A DNA stretch of 64,000 bases from Mizuhopecten yessoensis (taxonomy: Eukaryota), in NCBI RefSeq assembly GCF_002113885.1, contig NW_018408912.1, positions 520,947-584,946 of the forward strand, given 5' to 3'. The position numbers were made by a program, and so were the translations under genes. Within the stretch, counting starts at the first letter, position 1. Each line of letters begins with the position of its first letter. Shown in pieces: positions 850 through 64,000 of this stretch. Under the pieces are notes generated by a model, which saw only the letters and a program-made list of their open reading frames with translations, had not been told where the DNA came from and searched no databases.

Positions 850-2830
850 CAACAAGTATTCACGGACAGATGGTTTCGTGGGTGACAGAAGCTGGGATTT
901 GCACGGCGAATACATGTGTCATTGAAGAAGACGCTGGAGATGGATTGCCATGGCAGTCAAACTAACGGTAAAACAGAAGGAGATCCGATCGCCGCACGTA
1001 AAACCCATTTTATTTTAACCAACAATTTTAGTCTGTTGATTCAACATGTCGAGAAGTCCACATAACAATGGCGGTATGCATGGAGTTTTATTGGTATCAC
1101 GATTTACACGTGTAACCAACGATTTAACTAATTGCTGGTGTAAGAATGTCTTTGTTTGGCAGCCTGGAAGTACTATCGTCAACAGAATGGGAAAAGGGGG
1201 ATACGGTAATGATTGTAGCAAAAGAATTAAATGCGGTTGGAAAACGAAAAATGCACAGGGTTCTATCAGGGATGAAAAAAAAGGAAAAGTAAACAGGGAA
1301 TGTCATGGTTTGAGATCAAATGAAAATAGAATTGGGAGTTAAGTCGTCACTATCTTTGGAGCCAAAGACCTGCTCTACAGAGAACTTAATTCATATCAAA
1401 GTTATTTGTACAGCTAGGAGAATGACAACGATTGCTGAGATATAAGTTTTTCGATAATGACGGTAAATACGGAAGAAGGAAAATGTGAATCAGGCAGAAC
1501 AGTATTCGTTGAAGAAGGAAAAGCTGTTTTACTCCGAACAAATATTAATGAAGAATGATGTTTTGCATGAAGAAGTCGTGGAAGATTAATGTCAGATGAT
1601 GTAATGAGTATGATAGAATTTGCAGTGAACAACAACTTTAGTCGGGGCGGGAAGAACTACACGCAGAAGGGAGGAAGTAGTGATAAGCTCGAGGCAAGGA
1701 GGACATTTCACATGTACATTACATATATAAGGAAGTGGGAGGAACTACTTTATAAAAGGAACTTCTTTATAAAAGGTACTTCTCCCAGGTGTTTAGCAAA
1801 CGGTTTGGAAGTCAGGAATCTGCTTTGTTTTGCTGCATACATTAACACAATTCACAAGAGCGCCTAGATCGAACTTAAATGGGACCGGGGAAAACGAGAG
1901 CTAGATTTACATCTGTATAAAAGACGAGTACATATTTATACATGAAACCACCTGACAAACAACTGTGCTTGTAAGGAAAATCATGTCACTCTACCCCTGT
2001 GAAGAGGCAATGATATATGTTTAGGAGTGAGGATCAAACGTAGAAAGAAAGACACTACCCCAGAAAGAAACCGTGGATGAAGCGGGGCATTTGTGTTTGA
2101 CCAACTGAACCGGTTGGATGCCGTGAACAAGAGAGAAATTTTAAACTACAAATAAAATAACAACGATCGGTAAACATGTGTGCCTCTAGTATCAACATTC
2201 CCTCACCTTCTACTGGAGGTCTATTGTGGCAACGTCAGAGAACGCTCAACGACTCAGATGGTATGGTCGTCACAATATTCAAAACGGGCCACTTGTTAGT
2301 GCATGACATGTGTAGACTCGGTGAACGATCTTTTCAATATCCATCACGCAAGTTTTCGCCTTTTGTGAAGTAAATGTGACACTACCATCTCTGTAGGTGA
2401 AACAGAAAGATTTGTGATAAGACAGTAAGCGAACACTTGAATATGTAAAGAACCAATGGGGGAAATTAATATACCCCATCATTGAGACGCCGAAAGATAA
2501 ATCTTGGATGAATAGAACTTGGTTAAAACAACTGGCTACACACTAGGGATGCAGAGTTACTATACATCATACTGTATGTAAGTATATTGTGACATCATAA
2601 TTACCAAATACAAAGCAAATATCTATAGGCAACTAGACATTCGTGGTGACAAGACGGACATCATCTAGAATCAGAAGCATTCCTACAGTTCTTGACGCGG
2701 GCCAGAATGACGTATCCAGCATCCGAGAGCTTTATTGTTCAATACCACCCATATAAACTCCCTGAAGGAGATATGATATTAACGTTAGTTGAAGAGGACA
2801 ATGGTTATGGGAGGCGGAACATGATTATCC
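850..2830 (+). mobile_element. Degenerate Penelope-like retroelement (RT + GIY-YIG endonuclease remnants)
   Basis: Frameshifted translation gives PLE-type motifs in the expected order: MIEFAVNNNF..GKNYTQKGG..KL..Y..KWEE (1607-1745), INTIH (~1840), KPPDKQL..SCH..VK.AMIY.LGVRIKR (1945-2041), VPLVSTF (~2180), VGETER (2393-2410; YIG-type motif), and a C-terminal W-M-N-R segment (~2505). Boundaries are approximate. Confidence 0.8.
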
Positions 2831-3034
2831 AGAATATGAATAACCAACGTCCATTTTTATGGTCTAAAAAAAGAAGAGTTAACATATCTGTTATCTGTAG
2901 AATAGCATATTCATTAAATCACGTTATTGTCTGAAGAAATGAGTTGTCATTAACACGTGTTCATTCCTATTGCCTGTACAAAAGTATAGGGATCAACCCA
3001 GATCAGCATTTATTGTCAGTAGGGAAGTGTTGTC

Positions 3035-3612
3035 ATATACCAACGTCGATACACTTATTGGTAGAGTCCATATTACCAACGTCGAAACACTTACTGGTAG
3101 AGTCCATATTACCAACGTCGCAACACTTATTGGTAGAGTCCATATTCCCCACGTCGAAACCCTTATTGGTAGAGTCCATATAACCAACGTCGATACACTT
3201 ATTGGTGGAGTCCATATTACCAACGTCGAAACACTTATTGGTAGAGTCCATAATACCAACGTCGAAACACTTACTGGTAGAGTCCATATTACCCACGTCG
3301 AAACACTTACAGGTAGAGTCCATATTGTAGAGTCCATATTACCAACTTCGAAACACTTATTGGTAGAGTCCATATTACAAACGTCGAAACACTTATTGGT
3401 AGAGTCCATATTACCAATGTCGAAACACTTATTGGTAGAGTCCATATTACCAACGTCGAAACACTTATTGGTCGAGTTCATATTACCAACGTCGAAACGC
3501 TTATTGGTAGAGTCCATATTACTCACTTCGAAACACTTATTGGTAGAGTCCATATTACCAACGTCGAAACACTTATTGGTAGAGTCCATATAACCAACGT
3601 CGATACACTTAT
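3035..3612. repeat. 36-bp minisatellite (TTATTGGTAGAGTCCATATTACCAACGTCGAAACAC), ~16 copies
   Basis: Near-perfect tandem units are directly visible, with one partial unit at ~3313-3326. This explains the 12-aa-periodic ORFs on both strands. Confidence 0.96.
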
Positions 3613-4496
3613 TCAAATGAATGACCTTTACTTATATTCAATGTCACAGGGGTCAAATATGTTTAAAACCTTTATACAACTTCTTCTGAATAACCAAGAG
3701 GCCTAGGGTTATGATATTTGGCAAGTAGCATGCTGGGATAAAAGCTACCAAGTTGGTTAAAATGAATGACCTTGACAAATATTCAATGTCATAATGGTGA
3801 AATATATTTGAAGCCTTTAAACAACTTCCTCTCAATAACCAAAAGGCCTAGGATTATGCTATTTGGCCAGAAGCATGCTGTGATGAAGCGCTACTAAGTT
3901 TGTTCAAATGAATGATCTTGACTTATTTTCAAGGTCACAAGGGTCAAATATGTTTAAAACATTTAAACAACTTCTTCTGAATAACCAAGAGGCCTAGGAA
4001 AATGATATTTGGCCAGTAACATGCTGGGATAATGGGCTACCAAGTTTATTCAAACGAATGACCTTGACATATATTCAAGTTCAAAGGGGTCAAATATGTT
4101 TGAAACCTTTAAACAACTTCTTTTGAATAACCAAGAGGCCTAGGATAGTGATATTTTCCCAGTAAAATGTTGAGATAAAGGGCTACCAAGTTTGTTCAAA
4201 TTAATAACCTTCGTCCATATTCAAGGTCACAGTGGTCATTATGTGTTTAAATCTTTAAATTATTTTAAAATATTTTGCCAAAAGCATGCTGTGTTGGAAG
4301 ACTATAACTCTATTAAACCTAATGTCCTTGTTCGACATTCAAGGTCACATGCGTCATATGTTTAAATCTTTTGATATGTTCTTATGAATCAAACACTGAT
4401 ATTCTGTCTGTAGCTGTATTTTAGTCCACTTTTAAGATTACAAGTGTGAGATTTATTCCAGGTGAGCGATTCAGGCCCATTTGGCCTCTTGTTTTT
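3613..4496 (+). mobile_element. 3' portion of a Helentron/DINE-like non-autonomous element with an internal ~146-bp tandem array
   Basis: AAATGAATGACCTT-like starts at ~3616, 3760, 3906, 4052, 4198 (period ~146, 5-6 units). It ends in CAGGTGAGCGATTC (subTIR-like, 4459), the hairpin AGGCC-CATTT-GGCCT and CTTGTTTTT, a terminus type common in mollusc Helentron-associated elements. Confidence 0.75.
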
Positions 4497-4865
4497 CTTA
4501 AGATAAATGTTTTCATCCGACTTTCAACATATATCATATCTCTCTAGGGGAGTTTTGTAATCTACATGCGTTTATTTATTTTCACCTGTTAAGTGAGGGT
4601 TATAACAGCGTCGTTTTCCACATAAAGTTTTGAGTGCGATAACTCTTAAAGGAAACTGTGATTTTCATTACACTTCTCTTCGATTTTGAGTTTGATCGAA
4701 AATCCATTATGTTCGCAAAAGATCGTCTGGGAGATTTTGCAACTTCAATTTCCACACAAAGTTTTTCGTTTAACTATTGAAAGATTGTTAAATTTCTTTT
4801 CCTACAGACGCATGTATTTCCATTCTCCGCTCATTTTTTTTTTAAGTTGATCCCAGAATGCTTTA

Positions 4866-6117
4866 ATAATAATAATAATAGACCTTATTTATACTCGATA
4901 GTAACATGTTGAGTCACAGACTCTTCTCACACATGGTCGAGAACATATATACAAGTATGTACACCATGGATAATACGTTACAAATATAAGAGATAATGCA
5001 AAACACATACATTATAAAGATATATTGTATACATATATAAAGCTATACTGCTTTTCAATTGAATTATTAATTATATAACTACATTTCATTACAACACATA
5101 TGTCAACCATACTGTTATAGTAACACACGCTGCTGAAACATAATTACATATCGTAGTATATTGCTTATTGGGAAAGTCGTAATGTCCAGATCAGGCCGAA
5201 AGAGAGGTGGTTTTTTTTGCTTTATACTAGTAGTTTAAAATCGTTTCTGCAGTAGTTTTTAAATACTGCAAGTGATTTGGAGGATTTGGTTTGAGTGGAT
5301 AGATGTGGTCCTTGATATAAAAATGACCGCTTGAATAGTTCTGTTTTGTGTTTTGGTATACGGTAATTTCCTGCTGTTGCGTTGCGTGTGTTTCTGTTGT
5401 GACTTTCCTGGACTAAAGTGTGTGTTTCTGTTGTGACTTTCCTGGACTAAAGTGTGTGTTTTGAGATATGCAGGGGCAAAATCATTGATAACCTTGTACA
5501 TTAATATGCATTCATTATATGCCACTCTTTTGGGAAGAGGCAACCAATTTAACTTTTTAAATAAATGTTCAGATGGTGAAGAAAAATCTGCATCAAGAAT
5601 GGATCTGGCAATTCTCTTTTGAATTTGTTGGGAGTTTATGAAAACTTTTGGTTGTACAGTGGCTCCATATATTAGAGCAGTTATCAAAGTATGGAAGCAT
5701 AAAACAGTTATAGTATGTGATTCTGGACGGTATTGGTAAGAACATTTTAATTCTGTTAAGATGGTGTAGTTTAAAAACAACTTTCTTAATTCTCGAACTT
5801 GCATATCCCACGACAGATGATCATCAATGCACACTCCAAGAAGCTTTTCTGATTTTACATTTTCCATAGTGGTATCATTAAAAATAACATTAAGTTTGTT
5901 AGCACATGCTTTCCTTTTCTGTCTTGTACAAATTAACATAGCTTTTGTTTTTTCCGCATTTAAACCCATTTAATTTTCCTTGCACCAAGTCGAGACATTC
6001 ACCAAATCGTCATTTAAGGCCGTTTTATTTTAGAAATATCCTTGTCAGCTTTGTGCATTGACGTATCATCTGCGTTTAAATGCATATCACATGAGTTGAC
6101 ATAAAAGGGTAAATCAT
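4866..6117 (-). mobile_element. 5'-truncated CR1/L2-clade LINE (RT C-terminal part, 3' UTR, (TAT)n tail)
   Basis: The minus strand reads NDLPFYVNSCDMHLNADDTSMH (6117-6052; YADD-equivalent), then LNAEKTKAMLI, KLLGVCIDDHLSW, QKRIARSIL, LFKKLNWLPL..R, LMYKVINDFAPAYL. The 3' UTR has a GAGTC-TGT-GACTC stem, and the 3' end is AATAAGGTC(TAT)n at 4866-4890. Frameshifted. Confidence 0.9.
5386..5460. repeat. 34-bp direct tandem duplication inside the LINE
   Basis: GTGTGTTTCTGTTGTGACTTTCCTGGACTAAAGT occurs twice. Confidence 0.9.
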
Positions 6118-6699
6118 TGCTTTATTTGTACCTTGCTTCGTACAGATATGTTTACATAAATTATTATAAAACTTGCCTTGAATACTGCCTACCCTCCCTC
6201 AAGATGATGCTCGGTAAAGTTAACGCATATTTACTGAGGGTACAGCGGTCTGATTCTATAGCGAAAATTTCGTTGGAATGCCATGAAAACTGCCTGGTAT
6301 ATATTGTCGATTTCCCGAACAAATTCCGAAATATTTGATGAGGCTGCTGCGATCTGATCAATAAAACAACGACAAATATATTGGAATTAATTCCTTCATC
6401 TTGGGGAAATTAACCATTATTCCAGAGAAACTGGTGCAGCGAGACATCCAGAATTCGCGTTGTTGTCCGTGTTGATAAGTGTTGTCATACCTCTATTCTC
6501 ATTGATAGTATAGGCATGTTATCGCCCTTCGTCCATACTGACTGTATAGACGTGTTATCACCATTCCATGTATACACATGATGTACTTAATATCTGTAGT
6601 ACACATGATGTTCTGAATGTCTGTAGCGACTAACATATTAACTGTGGATATGTGTTGCCATTAATTGTCTGTGTGAAAGTTGTCGTCAACTCTTATTGT

Positions 6700-7937
6700 C
6701 CACCACGTGTTTTCTGTAGAGAATTGTTACCCATCATTGTCCACCACGTTTTGTCAGTAGATATAGGTTACCATTCAATGTCCACCACGTTTTGTCAGTA
6801 GATATAGGTTACCATTCAATGTCCATCACGTTTTGTCAGTAGATATAGGTTATCATTCAATGTCCATCACGTTTTGTCAGTAGATATAGGTTACCATTCA
6901 ATGTCCATTACGTTTTGTCTATAGACATATGTTACCTATCATTGTCCACCACGTTTTGTCAGTAGATAGAGGTTACCATTCAATGTCCACCACGTTTTGT
7001 CAGTAGATATAGGTTAAAATTCAATGTTCATCGCGTTTTGTCAGTAGATAGAGGTTACCATTCAATGTCCATTACGTTTTGTCTATAGACATATGTTACC
7101 TATCATTGACCACCACGTATTGTCAGCAGTGATATGCTACCTTTAATTGTCCTATGTTACCTATCATTTCCCACCCCTTATTGTCAGTAGAGATATGTAC
7201 CCATCATTGTCATATTCGTATCAAAGGTAGAGATATGTTACCTTTAATTGTCCTATGTTACCTATCATTTCCCACCCCTTATTGTCAGTAGAGATATGTA
7301 CCTATTGATGTAGCACACGTATTGTCAGAAGAGATATGTGCCTATCAATGTCCATCACGTATTGTCAGTAGAGATGTATACCTATCATTGTCATATTCGT
7401 ATTAAAGGGAGAGATATGTTACCTATCATAGTCCACCACGTATTGTCAGTACAGATATGTACCTATCAATTTCCACCACGTATTGTCAGCAGTGATATGC
7501 TACCTTTAATTGTCCTATGTTACCTATCATTGACCACCACGTATTGTCAGTACAGATATGTACCTATCAATATCCACCTCTTATTGTCAGTAGAGATATG
7601 TAACCTCTAATTGTCCTATGTTACCTATCATTGACCACCACGTATTGTCAGCAGTGATATGCTACCTTTAATTGTCCTATGTTACCTATCATTGACCACC
7701 ACGTATTGTCAGTACAGATATGTACCTATCAAAGTCCATCACGTATTGTCAGTAGAGATATGTTACGTATCATTGTCCACCACGTTTTGTCAGTAGAAAT
7801 AGGTTACCATTCAATGTCCAACACGTTTTGTCAGTAGATATAGGTTACCATTCAATGTCCATTACGTTTTGTCTATAGACATATGTTTCCTATCATTGTC
7901 CACCACGGATTGTCAGTAGAGATATGTTACCTATCAA
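6700..7937. repeat. 41-bp minisatellite (GTCCACCACGTTTTGTCAGTAGATATAGGTTACCATTCAAT and variants)
   Basis: Units start at 6739, 6780, 6821, 6862 etc. The central part has variant and composite units (TGTCAGTAGAGATATGTTACCTATCATT). Confidence 0.95.
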
Positions 7938-8509
7938 TGACACGAACTAGCTTCCGTGTATTTTGTATGAAAAAGATATAGAGATTTTCTTTTTGTCCAT
8001 ATTTATCGACTGTCTAGATCTGTTGCTTGTTCAGTTCACACAGACCAATATTTAGGCACATTTTCGTAAATGAAGACCAGTTTACGCGCATAAATCATCC
8101 GTAAATTCCATTTCGTACTGAACAGAATATATGCCTGCGGTTTTCAGTACATATATACAGTATCTTGACCTAATTATATTATTGCTATATACAGACCATC
8201 TCCATATATAGACTAACAATTATGAATGATTTTCAGCCCATACAGAAATTCATTTCAGATTCTATCATTTATGTCTTATTTATCAGTGCAGATCAGTATG
8301 TTTGCCACCTTGTTCAGTATATTCAAGCAAGCATCACATAGGATAGCTGCCAGGTACATCCTGCCCAACACATTGGTCTAACTGTTCACGTGATACAGAC
8401 AAACATATGGACACAATGTCTTAGTAAATTTGACTGCTGAATATGTGCTACTAACCAAATGTCTTTTTATTAAACTGGGTTTAGTTTCATACATCTAGAA
8501 TGTTGTGAT

Positions 8510-11500
8510 GCAAGCCGGATCTGTCATCAAGTGAAGTCCTCCTTCCTAGGTTGTTTCGGCGCTGTCCATTTCAATCTCCGGTGGAGCGCTGTCTGGGTTG
8601 ATCAGTCCCCAGCCCTGACCCGTCTAGCTGATCACCACGTGTTCTGCCAATGTATGATGCAGTTGACAGTACTTAACACAATCTCACATCACCTCTGTTT
8701 AAAGTCGCAGAGTGACCACACTACTGTTTCCCCGATGCCCAATAGTCCACTTCTTCCACGGCCACTAAGAAGCTGTCTTTGTCTGCCTGCAGACTCCACC
8801 AATCAGTTGCTTCCTGTCCCTGCCTACGACGCCTATGATTCTATGGCTCTCCCGAACGACTACCCTGTAAGGCCACTGCAACCTACATTATACAGTAGAC
8901 ACCAACTCACTATCCTTTATGATGAAATCCGTTCATCAATTCGTGCTTTGCCTTCTTCTCTGATGTATCCACCATACACTCTTCCTATGGTATTGTCAGC
9001 TCTATTTGGACGAAGGTGACAAAAGCATCTTGTGATGACACCATGTGTATCGGCCCTCATTTAGTGCAACCGAGAGGGAAGAATGTATGTGTGCCTTGTT
9101 GACCATTCTACGGCACAATAAAAACCGTGGTTCATCATGTAGCCTCCACAAGAACAGGCTTGCTGCATATCGTACACCTACTTCAGCAGAAATCGAATGC
9201 GATGTTCCTCAATGGTCCAAATGTGCTTTTCCCATAAAAGGTCCTTTTGTCAAACGCCCTTTCAAGTTCAGCCAGCATCCTTGTTAGACTTTTTCTGCTA
9301 CAATAATCGTTCTTCGATTTGCTTCAATTGCTCTGACTTACCTTTACTCACTTTTACTTACTAGTTCCCTCTTCTCCGCCTGTCCTGTCCTATTCCGCAT
9401 TGAATTTGCTATTATTAACGGTCGTTTTCCGGCTAATGCTAGCGTCCAAACTATATTTCCATGGCGCAGCCTCGACTCCACTTCTGTGATGACTTTGTCT
9501 GTTGCTCCTTTCATTTCTGTCTTCGCTCTCATATGTGCCGGGACACATCAGACGTGTATTTTTAATCTGTTGACCCTAGGACCACCGATGAGTTCGTAAA
9601 TGTGCAGAATGGTCATTAGATGCAACAAATGCTTACTTAAAAAACAGCTTTATGCATCGACTCACTAAATTTTAAAGCATGATCTACTTTACTTCTGTAG
9701 TGATTCTTATACACCACAAGGTGATAGACGCTGTCGGTGCACTATCAGCCCGTGAGGTTGGCCGTAACTGTGTAGCAAGAATTTACTCTAGCAAGGTGTA
9801 CATGAAATGAAATACTACATAATGCACTTCAAACATGGTCTAGCTGTGGAGACGAAAGTTGGAAATTGGGATTTTCATTATTTTGACCTTTGATACCGCT
9901 GCTGACGAATGAACTGAATCGACGTCATGTTCTCAAAAAAGTGCTCCTTTACTTCATATTCATTCTTCTTCGTATTCTTCGCATTTTCTTCTTCCATCTT
10001 CTCACCCTTGCTGTTCTGGACTATGAGCCATTCGGTAATATCCTATCAATTAAATAGGGGTTTCAGCGGAGAGCCCGCTACTGGCATAACTCTTAGAACT
10101 CCCATCCTCTTACCGGGATATCTGCTCCCCATCCACTCCGTTCTCTTAACTAATGTCTTCATAATACAACAGTAGGTACCACTACAGCCTTGATAACATT
10201 CGGTGGCTGTAGATCTTTGCCTGAAATCGTCCTTGTAACCCTCACTTGTTCAGTGTTGTCATCCGTTCATACATTGATTCGGCATCCTTATGTACATCAT
10301 TGACTTTTTGAGACAGTATGTCTCCAGTCCGATCCTGAACTTTTTCTATTTGTTTTACTTTCTTTCATTTTCTTAAAAACCAGATTCCGAAAGCTAGTCG
10401 GCTTGAATTTCATGTGTGTCCATGATCCGACTTCTTCCAATTCCTGCATTAACGTCACTGTATCGTTTGTTACTGTCATGTCGTCCCTAAAGGCTAATGT
10501 TAATGACTCTGCCTTATTCCAGATGCCATGTTGGGTCCTTGGTTCATTTCTTCAGCAGATTTCACTATCAGATTCATTGTTGCTGAGAAAAAGATGACCG
10601 GGATTGTACAGCCCATCGCCACTTTCGCATCCAAGCGTGGGCATGTTGTTGTGTAGTCATGCATGGTGAATGCATATGGAGGAGTTCGGAGTACTCTCTC
10701 GGCGCATGGAACCGCTCTAGCATTAGCTGAACTATGTTATCAGTGTACATCGTTGCCTTGTATGGGTTGACCAGGTCTAGGAAAATGACTTTCACGTCTC
10801 CTTTCCCTTTTTAGCTTTCCTGATGACCAGAGTAAGCCGACTGATGAGATGAACACAAGCCGAGACTCCTGGAACTTCTGTAATGTATCTTGGCAGAACG
10901 ACTAAGAACATCCCCCTTTCCACGTTCAACAAGACATAGTCTGAACTATCCAAGTGTCCTTCTTTGGAATGAATGATCCCTCTACATCAAGCCCCCTGGC
11001 AGCCAGCCACATCACCCTCATTGTTCCTCTAAGAAGCTTCCGCAGCTCATCGTCATTCTCGAGCAGTTTTTATAATCCAATATGGTATCTCAAAAGGTAC
11101 GGGCAATGCTGTTACTCTATCCTTCATGATAATTTCAATCACCTCGAAGAGCTTTGGTTCATTGTCATCTTGCATAGAATATCGAAAGACTCCAGGTCTT
11201 CTCTTCGGCGCATGTCGTGGTGAATTGCCTTTATGGAGCTTTCGACCTCTCTATCACATGACAATTGTGCGACCCCTTGTTGTTTAATAGTTTTGACGAA
11301 AAATGAAATGGATTTGTAATAAATGTTCCCTTCATCTGAATGTATTTAACTCTATATCATTTACAACAATTATGAAACAACTTTCGTCAACCTGTAGTTT
11401 AATCACTGTTGTTGCAGCAGTAGGAGAAAACCCGCGTCTTCATTATATCCACCGCTGGTTTAACATTTATGTTTTTTCGGGACAAAATCTATCCTATCCG

Positions 11501-57946: not shown

Positions 57947-59482
57947 GAATGTACCCTGGTAGGCAAGGCGGCAATATGCAGGGAAACGCTGTGATGCAGA
58001 ACTACCCTCAACAGAATATGTACAATGGTCCAAGTCACGGGAATGCTAACATGTATAACAATATGCCTATGGGCAACAGGAACTATCCTATGTACAGTAG
58101 TGGACAGAATAGCATGATGAATGTGAACAATCAGTATGGTAATAGTTATGGGAACCATATGGGTCAAGGATCAGGCCCTGGTCCGGGTCCGGGTCCAGTT
58201 CCGGGTCCAGGTCCAGGTCCAGGTCCTGGTCCAGGTCCTGGTCCTGGTCCTGGTCCTGGTCAGAACTCGGGGCCAGGGCCAGGGCCTGGTTCTGGGCCTG
58301 GTCCTGGTCCTGGTCCAGGTCCAGGTGCCAGTCCTGGGCCTGGAGTCTCTGTAGTCCCAGGAGGTCCAAGCCCTGGACCAATCGGTCCCAATGCTGGTGG
58401 TCCCAGCCCCGGACCCAATGGTCCAAGTAGTGGAGGTCCAAGTCCTGGGCTGGGGCTGGGACCTGGGAGTCATTCAGGGATGTCTCAAAACAGTGGCATG
58501 GCAGGATCCCTGGGCCAACAAGGACAAAACATGGCGGCAAGTAGTCCAGGACAACCAGTTGGAGCAACTGTCCCTGCAGTTAAAGGTGCACAGGCGGCTG
58601 CTCAAGCTGCTTTGATAGCGGCGGCCAATTCTGCAAAAGGTCAACAACCAGTGGCAGTACGTCCCACCATGACAAATCCGCAAAGAATGTATACGCCACC
58701 ACAGCAAATGGGCCAAATGAATCAAATGAACCATGTAGGATATGGGCACAACTTCAACTCTAACATACCAAACTCAAATATGAATCAGTTGCCCAACTCG
58801 CATTCGCCAGTGCCTAATTCTAGTTCAATGGGTGGCCATTTACCATGTACTTCACCATCTACAATGCCCAACGATAATAATAGCATGTCTGTACCAATAT
58901 CTAGTAGTGTTCCTAATAGTTCTTTACCAAATAGTATAGGCGGCAATAATAACAATGGTTCCATGTTGCCAGCAACGTCTGTGCAACAGAACATTTCATC
59001 TGGTAGTATGCCGTCTGATAATTCAGTTATATCGTCATCATTAGCCTCTTCCATGGATTCAAATATGCCTTCATCAAATATCCCTCCATCTAGGACACCA
59101 AATATGCAACAGCATGACTCTAATTCATCTAGCTCAACGTTATCCAATACAAGTGTTCCAATTACTGAAAGTGAAGTTCATTCTAGTGCTCCTGATTCGA
59201 CACAAAATAGTCAACATGACACTAAAAAGAAGGGCAGTAGTGACCCCCAGGGGGTAGCACCTGTGTGTAATACGCCCAATCAAAGCTCGGATGTAGATAG
59301 CAACTCCTCTGGTATGACAAAGTCACACCACGAGAATCAGTCAATAGATGGAAAGGATCAAAGACTAAATGCAATGTCATCAGACAGTGTACCATCAGGC
59401 ATGCCAATGGAGCAAGTATCCTCACCATTCTCATCTAAGCAAGAAATGCCCATCACCACTACAGCAACTACAACAAACTCAG
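57947..59482 (+). CDS. ARID1: ARID1 coding exon 8 (1536 nt; GP repeat, Ala-rich helix, S/N-rich IDR)
   Basis: attcag|GA ATG TAC..TCA G|gtaagt. The frame is open throughout and contains KGAQAAAQAALIAAANSA. Phase 1-1. Confidence 0.93.
58174..58344 (+). repeat. Coding 6-bp (GGNCCN)n repeat encoding poly(Gly-Pro)
   Basis: GPGPGPGPVPGPGPGPGPGPGPGPGPGPGQNSGPGPGPGSGPGPGPGPGPG within exon 8. Confidence 0.95.
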
Positions 59483-60038
59483 GTAAGTAATTTGGAGGAA
59501 GGAATATTTAGTAAGAAAATCTCAACTTTCTGATGAAAAATGCAGCAATCTTTACATAAAAAATGTTGTGTTGAAAATGATGACCTGAATTTCAGGCTAG
59601 AGTTTCAGACATTGGTCGATAATGATCAATGAATGAGGCAAACACCATACTGATCAACACCAAGACGCAAGGGCTTCCTTATTTTAGTTTTAAACCATAA
59701 TATATTAAAATTTAATATGTAACTGAACCAGTTCATTATCAGTAATTGTCTAGACCTAGTTTTAAGCAGAAATATTTCTAAAAGGAATGTTTGTAGTTAT
59801 TTCAAATCCGATACATTGTAAAGAATTTTCTGATCGAGTGACCCTAGTTGATTGCATATTTTAATGTTGGCATTGGTTCATGTTGATGCTGTTAAGATAT
59901 CAAAAGGCCAAAAAATGATGCATGGGAATATTTTTCGATGTGCTTTTAATTTGGATTAAGAATATAAGTATTCTGTAGAGAAATTTCTCCTTGTGAACCT
60001 GACTATTTACACGACTACACATGTACTTTGGTTACCAG

Positions 60039-60229
60039 ATATAAAAACGATAGTCACTCAGAGCATCACTAGCCCGGTGACGAGCATTTCCGAGGCCGGG
60101 AACAGCAACGACAGCCATCAGGACCACATTCCCATCCCCCCACAACCTAACTGTTTACCCATGCCGCCGATCCCTACGATAGAGGAGGCTCCTGCCCCTC
60201 CCCCTCCATCCACGGAGAAAAAGAAAAAG
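60039..60229 (+). CDS. ARID1: ARID1 coding exon 9 (Pro-rich, ends in KKKK putative NLS)
   Basis: ttaccag|AT ATA AAA..AAA AAG|gtacga. Phase 1-0, which is needed to connect exon 8 (phase 1) to exon 10 (phase 0). Confidence 0.85.
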
Positions 60230-61414
60230 GTACGATTCATACCCATCTACAAACACTTTAGTGTAGCTGTAAACATAATCACACGTTTTCCTGTTGATGT
60301 TTTTGATATGTCATCTGTGAATATTAAATCAATTATAACCAAATCGGTTTGTTCCAGATTTTGTTAGATGACAAGTTTAAGATTCTTTTCTTTTTTGTAG
60401 TACGTTTGTTAACACATAAATCTTCAATGATCTGATTGTTCTGTTGTAATTGTTGAAAATTGTACGAACTTGTCGGTTGTCTAACAAAAGTTTGAGCAAC
60501 TTACACGAGATGCTACTGCATACATGATTTGTTTTTGTATTCTCATTAGTTCTTGGGAAAACATAAGCTGGGATTATCTTTTAAAAAATGATTAAGAAAA
60601 AAAAGCCTGTTGTCAGAATATAAAGAAGATTTAAATATGTAACTTTCAGGCTGTTGTTTCACAGCAATTCAGATCTTGTAAGAAACGAGAGTAGTTGAAG
60701 GGAGGTAATCTGGCACAGTTGTGAAGCAGGGCCTACAATTGTAGATACAATGCCATTGACAAAATCAATAGTAACATAAATGTAGAAGTGTGGTTTTGAT
60801 TTTGACTTTTTCTGTATCAAAACAAATTCCATGAAAGTAGAAGTTATAATAGTACAACTATAAATATTGCTGAGTAACAATTGCAAAAAAATCATACTGA
60901 TTTAGGAACTAAATTGTTATTAAGTTGATTATAAATGAACAGTATGTAGTTTAGCCTTCTGTCAGCATGTGTTTTCAGGGCTTTTACTTTCAAGCTTGAA
61001 TCTCCTGTGGGATATGAACATGATTGAATGATGCACTTGAGGGTGAAGTTTGCATTTTGAGTTGATTTTGTTTCTGAGGTTGATGCTATATATGATTGGC
61101 TGTACTTTTCATAGGCAGTGACAGACTCGCTCAACAACAAATTGATCTTGACTGCAAACTCTTGCAGCAAAGGGGCTCAGCTCTCAAACATAAACCGGGG
61201 AAGAATAAACTTAACAATTGCTGCTCTGGGGCAAGTCTGATGTTTGTTGTATAAATACAATGTCTGACTTGTCCATTTAAATGAGCAATTGGTAATTTTT
61301 GCCTCGATTTACAGGTATAGAGCTAAGCTTTCATATCCACAGTAGCAATACACTGCTGTACTCACTTAGTGACCTAAGGACAGGTAATGAGCCGTAGACT
61401 TGCCTTCATTGTAG

Positions 61415-61573
61415 GAGGGTGTATTGTCACATCCACCTACTCCCGCCAGTTCAGTGGCACCATCACCTGGCGGAGCCAGTATTTCATCTTGTCACGACGA
61501 CTTTGACAATATCGCCAGTCCGGCTAGCTCCACATCTGGCCCGGCGGTGGTTCCCTCGTGGGTCACCATGACA
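61415..61573 (+). CDS. ARID1: ARID1 coding exon 10
   Basis: cattgtag|GAG GGT GTA..ATG ACA|gtaagt. Translates EGVLSHPPTPASSVAPSPGGASISSCHDDFDNIASP. Phase 0-0. Possible alternative donor at 61558. Confidence 0.85.
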
Positions 61574-63731
61574 GTAAGTCCTACACCTCCCCCGTCGCTC
61601 GCTCGATAGCCTGCTCGCTCGTCATGGGTGTGGTACCCTCCTGCATCATACCGTCCGCCCGCTGTGGGATGTGGTTGTCATGGCATTTGTATTATTTACA
61701 TATTTTATATTTATATATATATATTTTCTTTATAGTGGTGAAGTTGTGATTTTTATTATTCATAACTGGTACTGGTCTTGTCTGCCCTGCACATTGTACT
61801 GGACAATGCCAGTATGTCACAAAACATGTGGTTCCTGGATGTGACTTGCACACTAGGCTTGTACTACTGTCAGACATTTGTTATCTCCCTTTAACAGAAA
61901 CTCTTTTGAAGTTTGATTGCAATATTTTGATTGAAGCTAATATAGCATATTTGAGACAAAAAGAGACTGATATAAAACAGAGTAGACTGTGTTAGGGAGA
62001 TGACAGTGTAAAAGACCATGCTGATATATGGGACTTACTGGTGTAAAGTATTTACTACCATTCGTGCTTTGCTCACTTGGACTAATGGTTTGATCATGTC
62101 ATTTATAATTTCATTATTTGCATTTTTACTGACTCGGCACTCACAGGATCAGATGCAGGTAATATCATGCTCGAAGGCCTTGATTTTGGCACAGCTCTTG
62201 TATTTCAAAGTTTAAAGTTTATTGTTATTTATAGAAATGTTTTACTTTCAAGTTTTTGTTCAAATTTGGTTTGAAATTTCTGTTTCTTGTTGACATGGCA
62301 TATCCTATGAACTATTTATCTTTGGCTTTCAAAAATCACTTGCAACATCAGAACAAGGCATCGGGTTTGTGTTTACAAAATTGTTTCATAAATGTTTTGC
62401 CAAGATGATCAATAGCAAATTATGTAACAACTAAAATATTAATTAATACCAGTTAATTGCCATTTATTACACTACTAATTGAAAGTTTAATCACAACCAA
62501 AAGCAATGATTTTACAATTTGTTATGCATCATCAAGGTTAGATCTTTTAGCCTTCCATTTTAAATCATATTCAAATATATTTTTTGTTAAAAACAATAAT
62601 ATCCGTCAAGTTCTGCGGTCATGTCCTAAGTAAAAATAATCACATCACACACTTAGAGGAAGCTGCATATGTAGATTGTTTCATAGCATGGATGTCATTA
62701 ATAGAGGGCACCTGCTGAATTTTATGAGATGAAACTACTGTATGATGAAAGTAAATTATATAACCCATCACCTACTGCAGCCAATTAATACTAATTCATT
62801 TGCATTTTAATTACCAATGTGCACCTTTATTTCATTGTCAACATTTCATTAGTTTAACACTCTATTGGAGTTTAATTCACCTCCATTTTGACTATTAGAC
62901 CTTCTTGGGGGTCACATTTCACTTGCAAATTAGACTTTGTTAATTTGTTAATTTTCTTATTGATTTTCTAGATAGTCTTTTGCATTTGCAGTTGTTATTT
63001 ATGGCAAACTTTATCCATTTGATAAGATCAAATCCAAGTTGCACAGAGCATATATGTTTTTGTTTCCTGTTCAATCTCGTTTTGACGTTTTCACTTTGCA
63101 CTGTAAAGAGTGGTTCAGTTCGTAAGCCTTAATGTCACACTTTAGTGTTTTGCGTCAATCAGTGGTTATGAACTTTCCCTGCATCATCATGTTTTATGTA
63201 TTTTCACACGTTTTTCTCTTCTCTGGAAAATTCATGTTTTGTCATTTGTCCAATTTTGCCAAGCATTTTGCTGATAATGATTAATTGAGTTTGAAATATT
63301 CCTGGATATTTTTATTTATCTTGCTTCCTTTTCTCAACTATAAAGTAGTAATTTGAATTCAAAGACAAATTCTCTGATGAATGTTGATTCTCGTCTTGTC
63401 AATTTCTTTGTTCTTGCGTTCATTCTTTTCTATATCTTTAATCATTAGACATCTGGATTTGACAATTAATTGAGAAGAGCAAAGTATAAAATGAATTTTT
63501 GTTGTAAACCTGTCACGAGTACGTTCCATATATTGGTGATGTATTTTTTTGTATGATGAATGTTTTATTTTATTTTGTTTGTTTTTTTTCTTCTCTTTTT
63601 TCCTCCCTCCCAAACAGCACTCCGCCAAGCCTGGTAAGACAGCCCTACAGTCATTGATGTAGTATTGAAAGCATGCCATTCTCCCCATATTTCCCTGAGC
63701 ACATGACTTTCATTCCTATTTGTCTTTATAG

Positions 63732-63923
63732 AAGGGCGGTGGTGACGTAGCGAAGCTGTATGAAATGGGCAGCGAGCCTGAGCGAAAGTACTTCCTGGAT
63801 CGTCTATTTGTGTTCCTCGAGGAGCGGTCGCAGCCTATCACTTCTATGCCCTCCATCAGCAAGCAGCCCCTTGACCTATACAGACTCTACCTAATTGTCA
63901 GGGATAAAGGTGGTATGCTTGAG
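63732..63923 (+). CDS. ARID1: ARID1 coding exon 11: N-terminal half of the ARID (BRIGHT) DNA-binding domain
   Basis: tttatag|AAG GGC GGT..CTT GAG|gtaaga. Translates KGGGDVAKLYEMGSEPERKYFLDRLFVFLEERSQPITSMPSISKQPLDLYRLYLIVRDKGGMLE. Confidence 0.96.
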
Positions 63924-64000
63924 GTAAGACCAATGGATAGTCGGGGCTCTAATTGTCGGGGATAAAAGTGGTATGCTTGAGGTAAGACCAAAGGATAATG
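63891..64000 (+). repeat. 58-bp tandem repeat spanning the ARID exon end and 5' splice site; runs off the window
   Basis: CTAATTGTC(A/G)GGGATAAA(G/A)GTGGTATGCTTGAGGTAAGACCAA(T/A)GGATA at 63891 and 63949. Confidence 0.92.

What the first reader, a model, noticed from the sequence alone, without database searches (positions are those of the whole stretch)
61556..63745. 16-nt microexon plus a donor 16 nt upstream: a possible coupled splice switch, or poison exon, in front of the ARID domain
Seen: a very strong polypyrimidine tract plus CAG (63580-63617), the exon CACTCCGCCAAGCCTG (63618-63633) and the donor GTAAGA. Joined to the main exon-10 donor (61573), it shifts the frame into TGA at 63743-63745, which would trigger NMD before the ARID domain. 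Exon 10 also has a second donor TC|GTGGGT at 61558, exactly 16 nt upstream. Using it with the microexon restores the frame and swaps PSWVTMT-KGGG for PSTPPSL-KGGG at equal length, adding a Pro-directed T-P phospho-motif. Inference: frame-coupled alternative splicing controlling ARID1 dosage or the linker next to the DNA-binding domain.
Basis: partly seen in the sequence, partly recalled or inferred. Interest (0 to 1): 0.7.

Follow-up and report, generated by a model that had tools for sequence, protein, structure and literature searches.

The report
Optional exons in front of ARID
In this mollusc's ARID1 chromatin-remodelling gene, RNA shows a different, 12-base mini-exon and a usually skipped 159-base exon (likely the counterpart of the optional exon 11 of human ARID1B) just before the DNA-binding domain, while the proposed 16-base exon looks like an exon in the DNA but was not seen spliced.

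Summary
The motifs and frame arithmetic are as described, and the 16-nt candidate has strong splice signals. RNA does not show the proposed switch. Across 8 laid runs from 6 studies the 16-nt exon appears in 0, and no exon-10 donor is seen in use. 'Exon 10' (61415-61573) is not constitutive: 60229>63732 skips it in 7 of 8 runs, and its acceptor is used in 1 of 8. The whole 3.5-kb intron is covered in four intron-holding runs while its neighbours are spliced out. Exon 10 matches a Ser/Pro-rich exon found from molluscs to birds, optional in Mytilus models and, by position and length, in human ARID1B (159-bp exon 11). The 16-nt exon stays possible as a rare or NMD-hidden poison exon (about 0.35); coupling to the weak 61557 donor is unlikely (about 0.1). 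Known kinds of splicing, at a deeply conserved site.

The parts
60039..60229 (+). Upstream exon ('exon 9'), ends in phase 0 after a lysine run; common donor for all junctions seen
   Evidence: joints 59482>60039 and 60229>63732/61415/62147; translation
60230..63731 (+). 3.5-kb alternatively spliced intron, covered end to end in four intron-holding runs (likely retained or slowly spliced)
   Evidence: contig depth 9-39 against 121-193 on flanking exons, neighbour introns joined out (ratios 0.05-0.31); runs were selected for holding this stretch
61415..61573 (+). Optional 159-nt phase-0 cassette exon ('exon 10'), Ser/Pro-rich; likely homologue of ARID1B exon 11. Acceptor shown, donor inferred
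   Evidence: acceptor joint in X12 at depth 28.2; skipped in 7 of 8 runs; 51.8 bits against a profile of 14 homologous segments
61558..61563 (+).
   Evidence: 5 of 11 consensus letters; no joint
61980..62146 (+). Intron flank before the 12-nt microexon, conserved in organism B; holds a 96-nt AG-free zone, CTAAY at -65 and UGC at -28
   Evidence: X20 contig 61980-62159 with 6 differences in 180; motifs
62147..62158 (+). 12-nt in-frame microexon encoding D-Q-M-Q, spliced between exon 9 and the ARID exon
   Evidence: joint with 9 letters between in X2 (depth 89.3) and X4 (63.2 against 71.8 skipped); located and translated
63456..63617 (+). Flank and pyrimidine tract before the 16-nt candidate; 63456-63558 conserved in organism B
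   Evidence: X20 contig with 2 differences and 1 gap in 103; 18 of 20 pyrimidines
63618..63633 (+).
   Evidence: 0 of 8 runs
63732..63923 (+). First ARID-domain exon, phase 0
   Evidence: Pfam ARID E 1.9e-10; best solved matches ARID1B/ARID1A; joints

Best explanation
The intron before the first ARID exon of this ARID1/Osa gene is an alternative-splicing site whose default product skips everything, whose optional in-frame inserts are a 12-nt microexon (62147-62158, seen spliced) and a 159-nt exon (61415-61573, acceptor seen, donor inferred, likely homologous to ARID1B exon 11), and the 16-nt stretch is likely either a silent look-alike or a rarely used poison exon rather than part of a coupled switch. 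Shown: the three junctions from 60229, the frames, and coverage of this intron but not its neighbours in four runs. Inferred: the inserts change the spacing and charge between the lysine run at the end of exon 9 and the first helix of the ARID domain (4 residues with an Asp, or 53 Ser/Pro-rich residues), which would tune DNA/nucleosome binding or phospho-regulation without touching the fold; the 12-nt exon is probably cell-type regulated through its UGC, branch-point and AG-free signals; slow choice among weak sites would explain the retained intron.
For:: 28 raw reads (X24) and 3 of 3 contig sets join 60229>63732; 12-nt insert in X2 and X4 (two studies), exon-10 acceptor in X12, skip in X4, X6, X12; contigs join exons on both sides, so they are RNA-derived; both inserts keep the frame; the exon-10 homologue is present in 11 and absent in 3 of 14 Mytilus models with an ARID start (both forms within M. 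edulis and within M. galloprovincialis), 3 vs 1 in cephalopods, 1 vs 3 in Haliotis, 0 vs 13 in Saccostrea; bird ARID1B records carry a 53-residue segment at this place; PMC8393241 (passages) states human ARID1B has an in-frame 159-bp exon 11 present in one transcript and absent in another; the 61573 form keeps a Trp found in the last 10 residues of 13 of 14 homologues and scores 51.8 against 44.5 bits for the coupled form; synonymous divergence to organism B at least 0.14-0.16, against 0.03 in the flank before the 12-nt exon.
Against: Seven of 8 runs are contigs, which drop rare forms and give rough depth; only 28 raw junction reads were seen, in a sample that skips everything (95% upper bound for the 16-nt exon about 10-20%). 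No exit junction of exon 10 was seen, so its donor is unproven. The flank before the 16-nt exon is as conserved in organism B as the flank of the real microexon, and its signals are stronger, which fits a real exon. A T-P pair, which the coupled form would supply, lies in the last 8 residues of 11 of 14 homologues. No D-Q-M-Q occurs in 258 fetched proteins, none of them a close relative. The exon-10 peptide alone found nothing at E<=10. The four intron-covering runs were chosen for holding the intron. Tissues are unknown. The functional step is untested.
Confidence: 0.7

Rival explanations
1. The 16-nt stretch is a real poison microexon, spliced mainly from exon 9 (or the 12-nt exon), shifting the frame into the TGA at 63743-63745 and feeding ARID1 mRNA to NMD. 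This is compatible with the rest of the best explanation.
For: AG-free zone 96 nt, 18 of 20 pyrimidines, donor in top 1.3%; with the proven 12-nt exon it is one of only 2 plus-strand hits in 64 kb; upstream flank conserved in organism B, 3 changes in 104 against synonymous divergence of at least 0.14; the stop lies 178 nt before the next junction; NMD would hide it.
Against: 0 of 8 runs; 3 minus-strand hits at the same setting; only pieces at least 92% alike were laid, so conserved pieces are selected; the exon itself was not covered in organism B.
Confidence: 0.35
2. One reading: the 61557 donor is used together with the 16-nt exon, swapping seven residues at equal length.
For: Exact 16-nt match and restored frame; supplies a T-P pair as in 11 of 14 homologues; in X12 molecules that enter exon 10 seem to leave it soon (mean depth 22.8 fits 21.9, not 48.2) by a junction the contigs do not hold, which split exits could explain; the 61573 donor is weak too.
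Against: No joint from 61557; donor no better than 47% of GT sites by consensus; used alone it shifts the frame; removes the Trp kept in 13 of 14 homologues; no such ending in 258 fetched proteins; a GT at -16 has a 6% chance rate.
Confidence: 0.1
3. Exon 10 in this species works mostly as an alternative last exon or a dead end: after its acceptor is used the transcript reads through 61573 to a stop at 61607 and is retained, cleaved or degraded.
For: Entry but no exit junction in X12, contig unbroken 61413-63759; read-through stop after 11 codons; a few X24 reads at 61615-62258.
Against: No AATAAA or ATTAAA between 61574 and 63731; open, homologue-like frame up to a GTAAGT donor; homologues splice it in frame; contigs drop minor junctions.
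Confidence: 0.12

Closest known systems
Human ARID1B optional in-frame 159-bp exon 11 (NM_001374828.1 vs NM_020732.3; PMC8393241, passages read)
   Same: 159 nt, in frame, optional; bird ARID1B records carry a similar 53-residue Ser/Pro-rich segment directly before the ARID start
   Different: C-terminal part diverged; here mostly skipped in the runs seen and followed by a 12-nt microexon. That human exon 11 encodes this very segment is recalled plus length match, not read from a call.
eMIC/SRRM4-dependent neural microexons (bioRxiv 2021.02.24.432780; PMC10250204; passages read)
   Same: 12-nt frame-keeping exon with UGC near the acceptor, long AG-free zone, CUAAY branch point, variable inclusion between samples
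   Different: Tissue and eMIC dependence untested; SRRM_C not found in the genome search (uninformative); the 16-nt candidate lacks UGC and CUAAY
Poison exons coupled to NMD in regulators (recalled; review PMC13542418, ARID1B passages only)
   Same: 16-nt candidate would give a premature stop well before later junctions, in a dosage-sensitive gene family; conserved flank
   Different: No inclusion seen; the passages read describe NMD of mutant ARID1B transcripts, not a natural poison exon
Optional short inserts before the ARID domain in other invertebrate ARID1/Osa models
   Same: Spiders (12 residues, P0019 vs P0073, P0089 vs P0090) and a nemertean (19 residues, P0051 vs P0006) vary at the same slot
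   Different: No sequence likeness to D-Q-M-Q or to the 16-nt product; annotation models, not reads

Membership tests
ARID1/Osa (BAF250) | ARID domain closest to ARID1A/B | tested here: met
   Pfam ARID on both ARID exons; top solved matches ARID1B, ARID1A; homologues named ARID1/osa
ARID1/Osa (BAF250) | C-terminal BAF250_C domain in this gene | not tested
   only seen in homologue P0004; own 3' exons not scanned
Microexon (12-nt, 62147-62158) | Under 28 nt, AG/GT flanks, included in spliced RNA | tested here: met
   2 of 8 runs, two studies
Microexon (16-nt, 63618-63633) | AG/GT flanks with strong signals | tested here: met
Microexon (16-nt, 63618-63633) | Included in spliced RNA | tested here: inconclusive
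   0 of 8 runs, but 7 are contigs and only 28 raw junction reads
eMIC-dependent neural microexon (12-nt) | UGC near acceptor, long AG-free zone, CUAAY branch point | tested here: met
   UGC -28, 96 nt, CTAAT -65; features
eMIC-dependent neural microexon (16-nt) | UGC near acceptor and CUAAY branch point | tested here: not met
   none within 100 nt
eMIC-dependent neural microexon (12-nt) | Neural-specific inclusion that depends on Srrm2/3/4 eMIC | not testable with these tools
   tissues not on record; PF15230 search of G000 blank, uninformative for split exons
Poison exon (16-nt) | Premature stop more than 50 nt before a later junction | tested here: met
   TGA 63743-63745, exon ends 63923
Poison exon (16-nt) | Inclusion rises when NMD is blocked | not testable with these tools
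   needs experiment
Poison exon (16-nt) | Conserved exon and flanks | tested here: inconclusive
   upstream flank conserved in organism B; exon not covered
ARID1B exon 11 homologue (61415-61573) | Sequence likeness, position before ARID, in-frame, optional | tested here: met
   profile score uses a low-complexity segment (bias 10) and a direct database search was blank
ARID1B exon 11 homologue (61415-61573) | Same intron positions in genomic DNA of other phyla | not testable with these tools
   no relatives' genomes held; boundaries inferred from isoform pairs

The most novel reading that the evidence does not exclude
The ARID1 pre-ARID linker is an ancient bilaterian splice switch: the exon optional in human ARID1B (exon 11) has stayed optional in molluscs since their common ancestor, and in this lineage one retained intron combines it with a cell-type microexon that tunes the basic patch beside the ARID domain and a 16-nt poison microexon that sets BAF subunit dosage, possibly rescued by a frame-coupled donor.
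Probability: 0.15. Interest if true: 0.7.

Novelty: new member of a known kind. Interest (0 to 1): 0.38.

Why it matters
ARID1 is a dosage-sensitive DNA-binding subunit of BAF. PMC8393241 (passages) says clinical evidence for the relevance of human ARID1B exon 11 was lacking. A similar segment in molluscs, spiders, insects, a nemertean and birds, optional in at least two Mytilus species and here, argues that it has a function and gives invertebrate systems to test it. The 12-nt microexon is a concrete marker for testing whether molluscs run an eMIC-type programme on chromatin regulators. The finding as first written (coupled donor switch) would be rare and notable, but has no RNA support.

Tried and rejected
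Run search listed no holder on record as RNA; RNA nature was judged from exon-joining contigs. Exon-10 peptide search: 118 candidates, none at E<=10. Six genomic ORFs of the window and L004 were not in the protein collection, so no isoform models of this species or close relatives were obtained; ten short ARID clusters held no informative isoforms. eMIC-domain search of G000 blank, no evidence either way. Exon 10 had no cover in organism B or X22-X24: not taken as absence. Genomic DNA as the source of intron cover was rejected because the same runs join out both neighbour introns. An assembly frameshift in exon 10 was rejected: four runs cover it with no gap listed there. A second gene copy was not found. 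Use of 63618 as a plain alternative acceptor gives a stop after 14 codons, no RNA support. Earlier scan notes: nothing. Nine paper searches listed no paper on a mollusc ARID1 microexon, judged by listings; PMC6900373 (first third read) was irrelevant. Supplements were not opened; fly or human microexon tables could list osa/ARID1 events.

Full report
Setting. The window is G000:C5585:520947-584946. The exon at 63732-63923 encodes the first half of an ARID domain (Pfam E 1.9e-10; best solved matches ARID1B and ARID1A), and relatives are named ARID1/osa. The closest matches (77-79%) are oyster-like records, so the organism is likely a bivalve.

Observation. All motifs are at the stated places. 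Frames: exon 9 ends in phase 0 at 60229; exon 10 to 61573 adds 159 nt; the 16-nt stretch after exon 9 or 61573 shifts the frame; 61557 plus 16 nt restores 159 nt; 61557 alone shifts it. The 16-nt candidate is strong: AG-free zone 96 nt, 18 of 20 pyrimidines, donor in the top 1.3% of 2338 GT sites (U1 motif recalled). Yet the minus strand gives as many look-alikes (1 vs 1 and 3 vs 2 in 64 kb; 1 vs 1 and 0 vs 1 in the gene). The 61557 donor is weak, and 2 of the 12 GT sites in exon 10 would restore the frame with a 16-nt exon.

RNA. Eight of 24 listed runs were laid, from 6 studies: one raw-read run and seven contig sets. The skip junction 60229>63732 is in 7 of 8, with 28 reads in X24. The exon-10 acceptor is used in 1 of 8 (X12, depth 28.2 against 44 skipped). 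No exit from exon 10 is held in any run. The 16-nt exon is in 0 of 8. In X2 and X4 the exon 9 to ARID joint carries nine extra letters, which with the shared ends make the 12-nt stretch 62147-62158, flanked by CAG and GTAATA, in frame, encoding D-Q-M-Q; X4 holds both forms (63.2 and 71.8), X2 only the included one. This also shows that the method can reveal a microexon. Limits: contigs drop rare forms, the tool masked 63559-63606, and X24 bounds the 16-nt exon only below about 10-20% in a sample that skips everything. In X12 the mean depth over 61413-63759 (22.8) fits molecules leaving soon after exon 10 (21.9) better than running through (48.2), so an exit probably exists but is unseen; contig depth is a rough measure.

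Intron cover. In X2, X4, X6 and X12 the whole intron 60230-63731 is covered at 5-31% of exon depth while both neighbour introns are joined out, which excludes genomic DNA. These four were picked for holding the intron; the four runs show only patches. Retention is therefore real in some samples, of unknown generality.

Conservation. Organism B (X20) differs at no less than 14-16% of synonymous sites in exons 9 and ARID. Its only two intron pieces lie directly before the 12-nt exon (6 changes in 180) and before the 16-nt candidate (3 in 104); binomial P 3e-7 and 5e-5 at 15%, with the caveat that only pieces at least 92% alike are laid. This supports constraint near both and is the main reason to keep the 16-nt exon alive. 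A Ser/Pro-rich segment like exon 10 precedes the ARID domain in cephalopods, Mytilus, Haliotis, a nemertean, spiders, insects, fish and birds. Present vs absent among models with an ARID start: Mytilus 11 vs 3 (15 fetched, of 94 members), cephalopods 3 vs 1, Haliotis 1 vs 3, Saccostrea 0 vs 13; these are annotation models. The bird segment is 53 residues, and PMC8393241 (passages) reports an in-frame 159-bp exon 11 in one human ARID1B transcript and not another. Against a profile of 14 hand-picked segments the 61573 form scores 51.8 bits and the coupled form 44.5; Trp is near the end in 13 of 14, T-P in 11 of 14, so homology leans to 61573 but does not settle it. Neither microexon product occurs in 258 fetched proteins, none from a close relative.

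Mechanism. Shown: one donor (60229) with three acceptors, and in-frame products. Inferred: inserts fall between a lysine run and the first ARID helix, where the solved ARID constructs begin, so they would leave the fold intact and change charge and spacing beside the DNA-binding surface. The 12-nt exon carries the cis features described for eMIC targets (UGC at -28, CTAAT at -65, AG-free 96 nt) and varies between samples, which fits cell-type control; tissue and dependence are untested, and the domain search was blank. The 16-nt candidate lacks UGC and CUAAY; if real it is more likely a poison exon spliced from exon 9 than half of a coupled switch.

Verdict. Observation partly confirmed, interpretation partly supported. 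Microexons, cassette exons, retained introns and poison exons are known kinds; nine paper searches listed nothing on this locus (listings only, supplements unseen). The value lies in the proven 12-nt exon and in the deep match to ARID1B exon 11. Interest 0.38; odds about 0.35 that the 16-nt exon is used at all and 0.1 for the coupled switch.

Noticed in passing
window 63891-63930 and 63949-63988: The end of the ARID exon with its donor is duplicated in tandem (95% alike, second donor at 63982). All laid RNA leaves at the first donor.
   Followed up: partly
L003 about 950-9900, L004 1-1000: The intron splitting the ARID domain is about 10.6 kb and is filled with repeated units of some hundred bases (same ORFs recur many times); a related stretch seems to lie at window 59560-59660.
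   Followed up: no
window 61315-61383: 69-nt exon-like stretch with a strong donor (top 1.2%) ending 31 nt before the exon-10 acceptor, too close for an intron between them; stop at once in phase 0; no RNA support.
   Followed up: partly
window 61574-61609: Reading through the 61573 donor gives a short Pro-rich peptide resembling the 16-nt product, then a stop; codons differ, probably chance.
   Followed up: partly
window 59481: A one-letter variant two bases before the exon-8 donor appears in X24 (2 reads) and X12.
   Followed up: no
window 62435-62480: Dense cluster of allelic differences in the intron across four runs, in contrast to the flanks of the two microexon sites.
   Followed up: no
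window 58150-58350: Long Gly-Pro repeat inside the large upstream exon.
   Followed up: no
P0019 vs P0073, P0089 vs P0090, P0051 vs P0006: Spider and nemertean ARID1 models also have optional short inserts between the exon-10 homologue and the ARID domain.
   Followed up: partly
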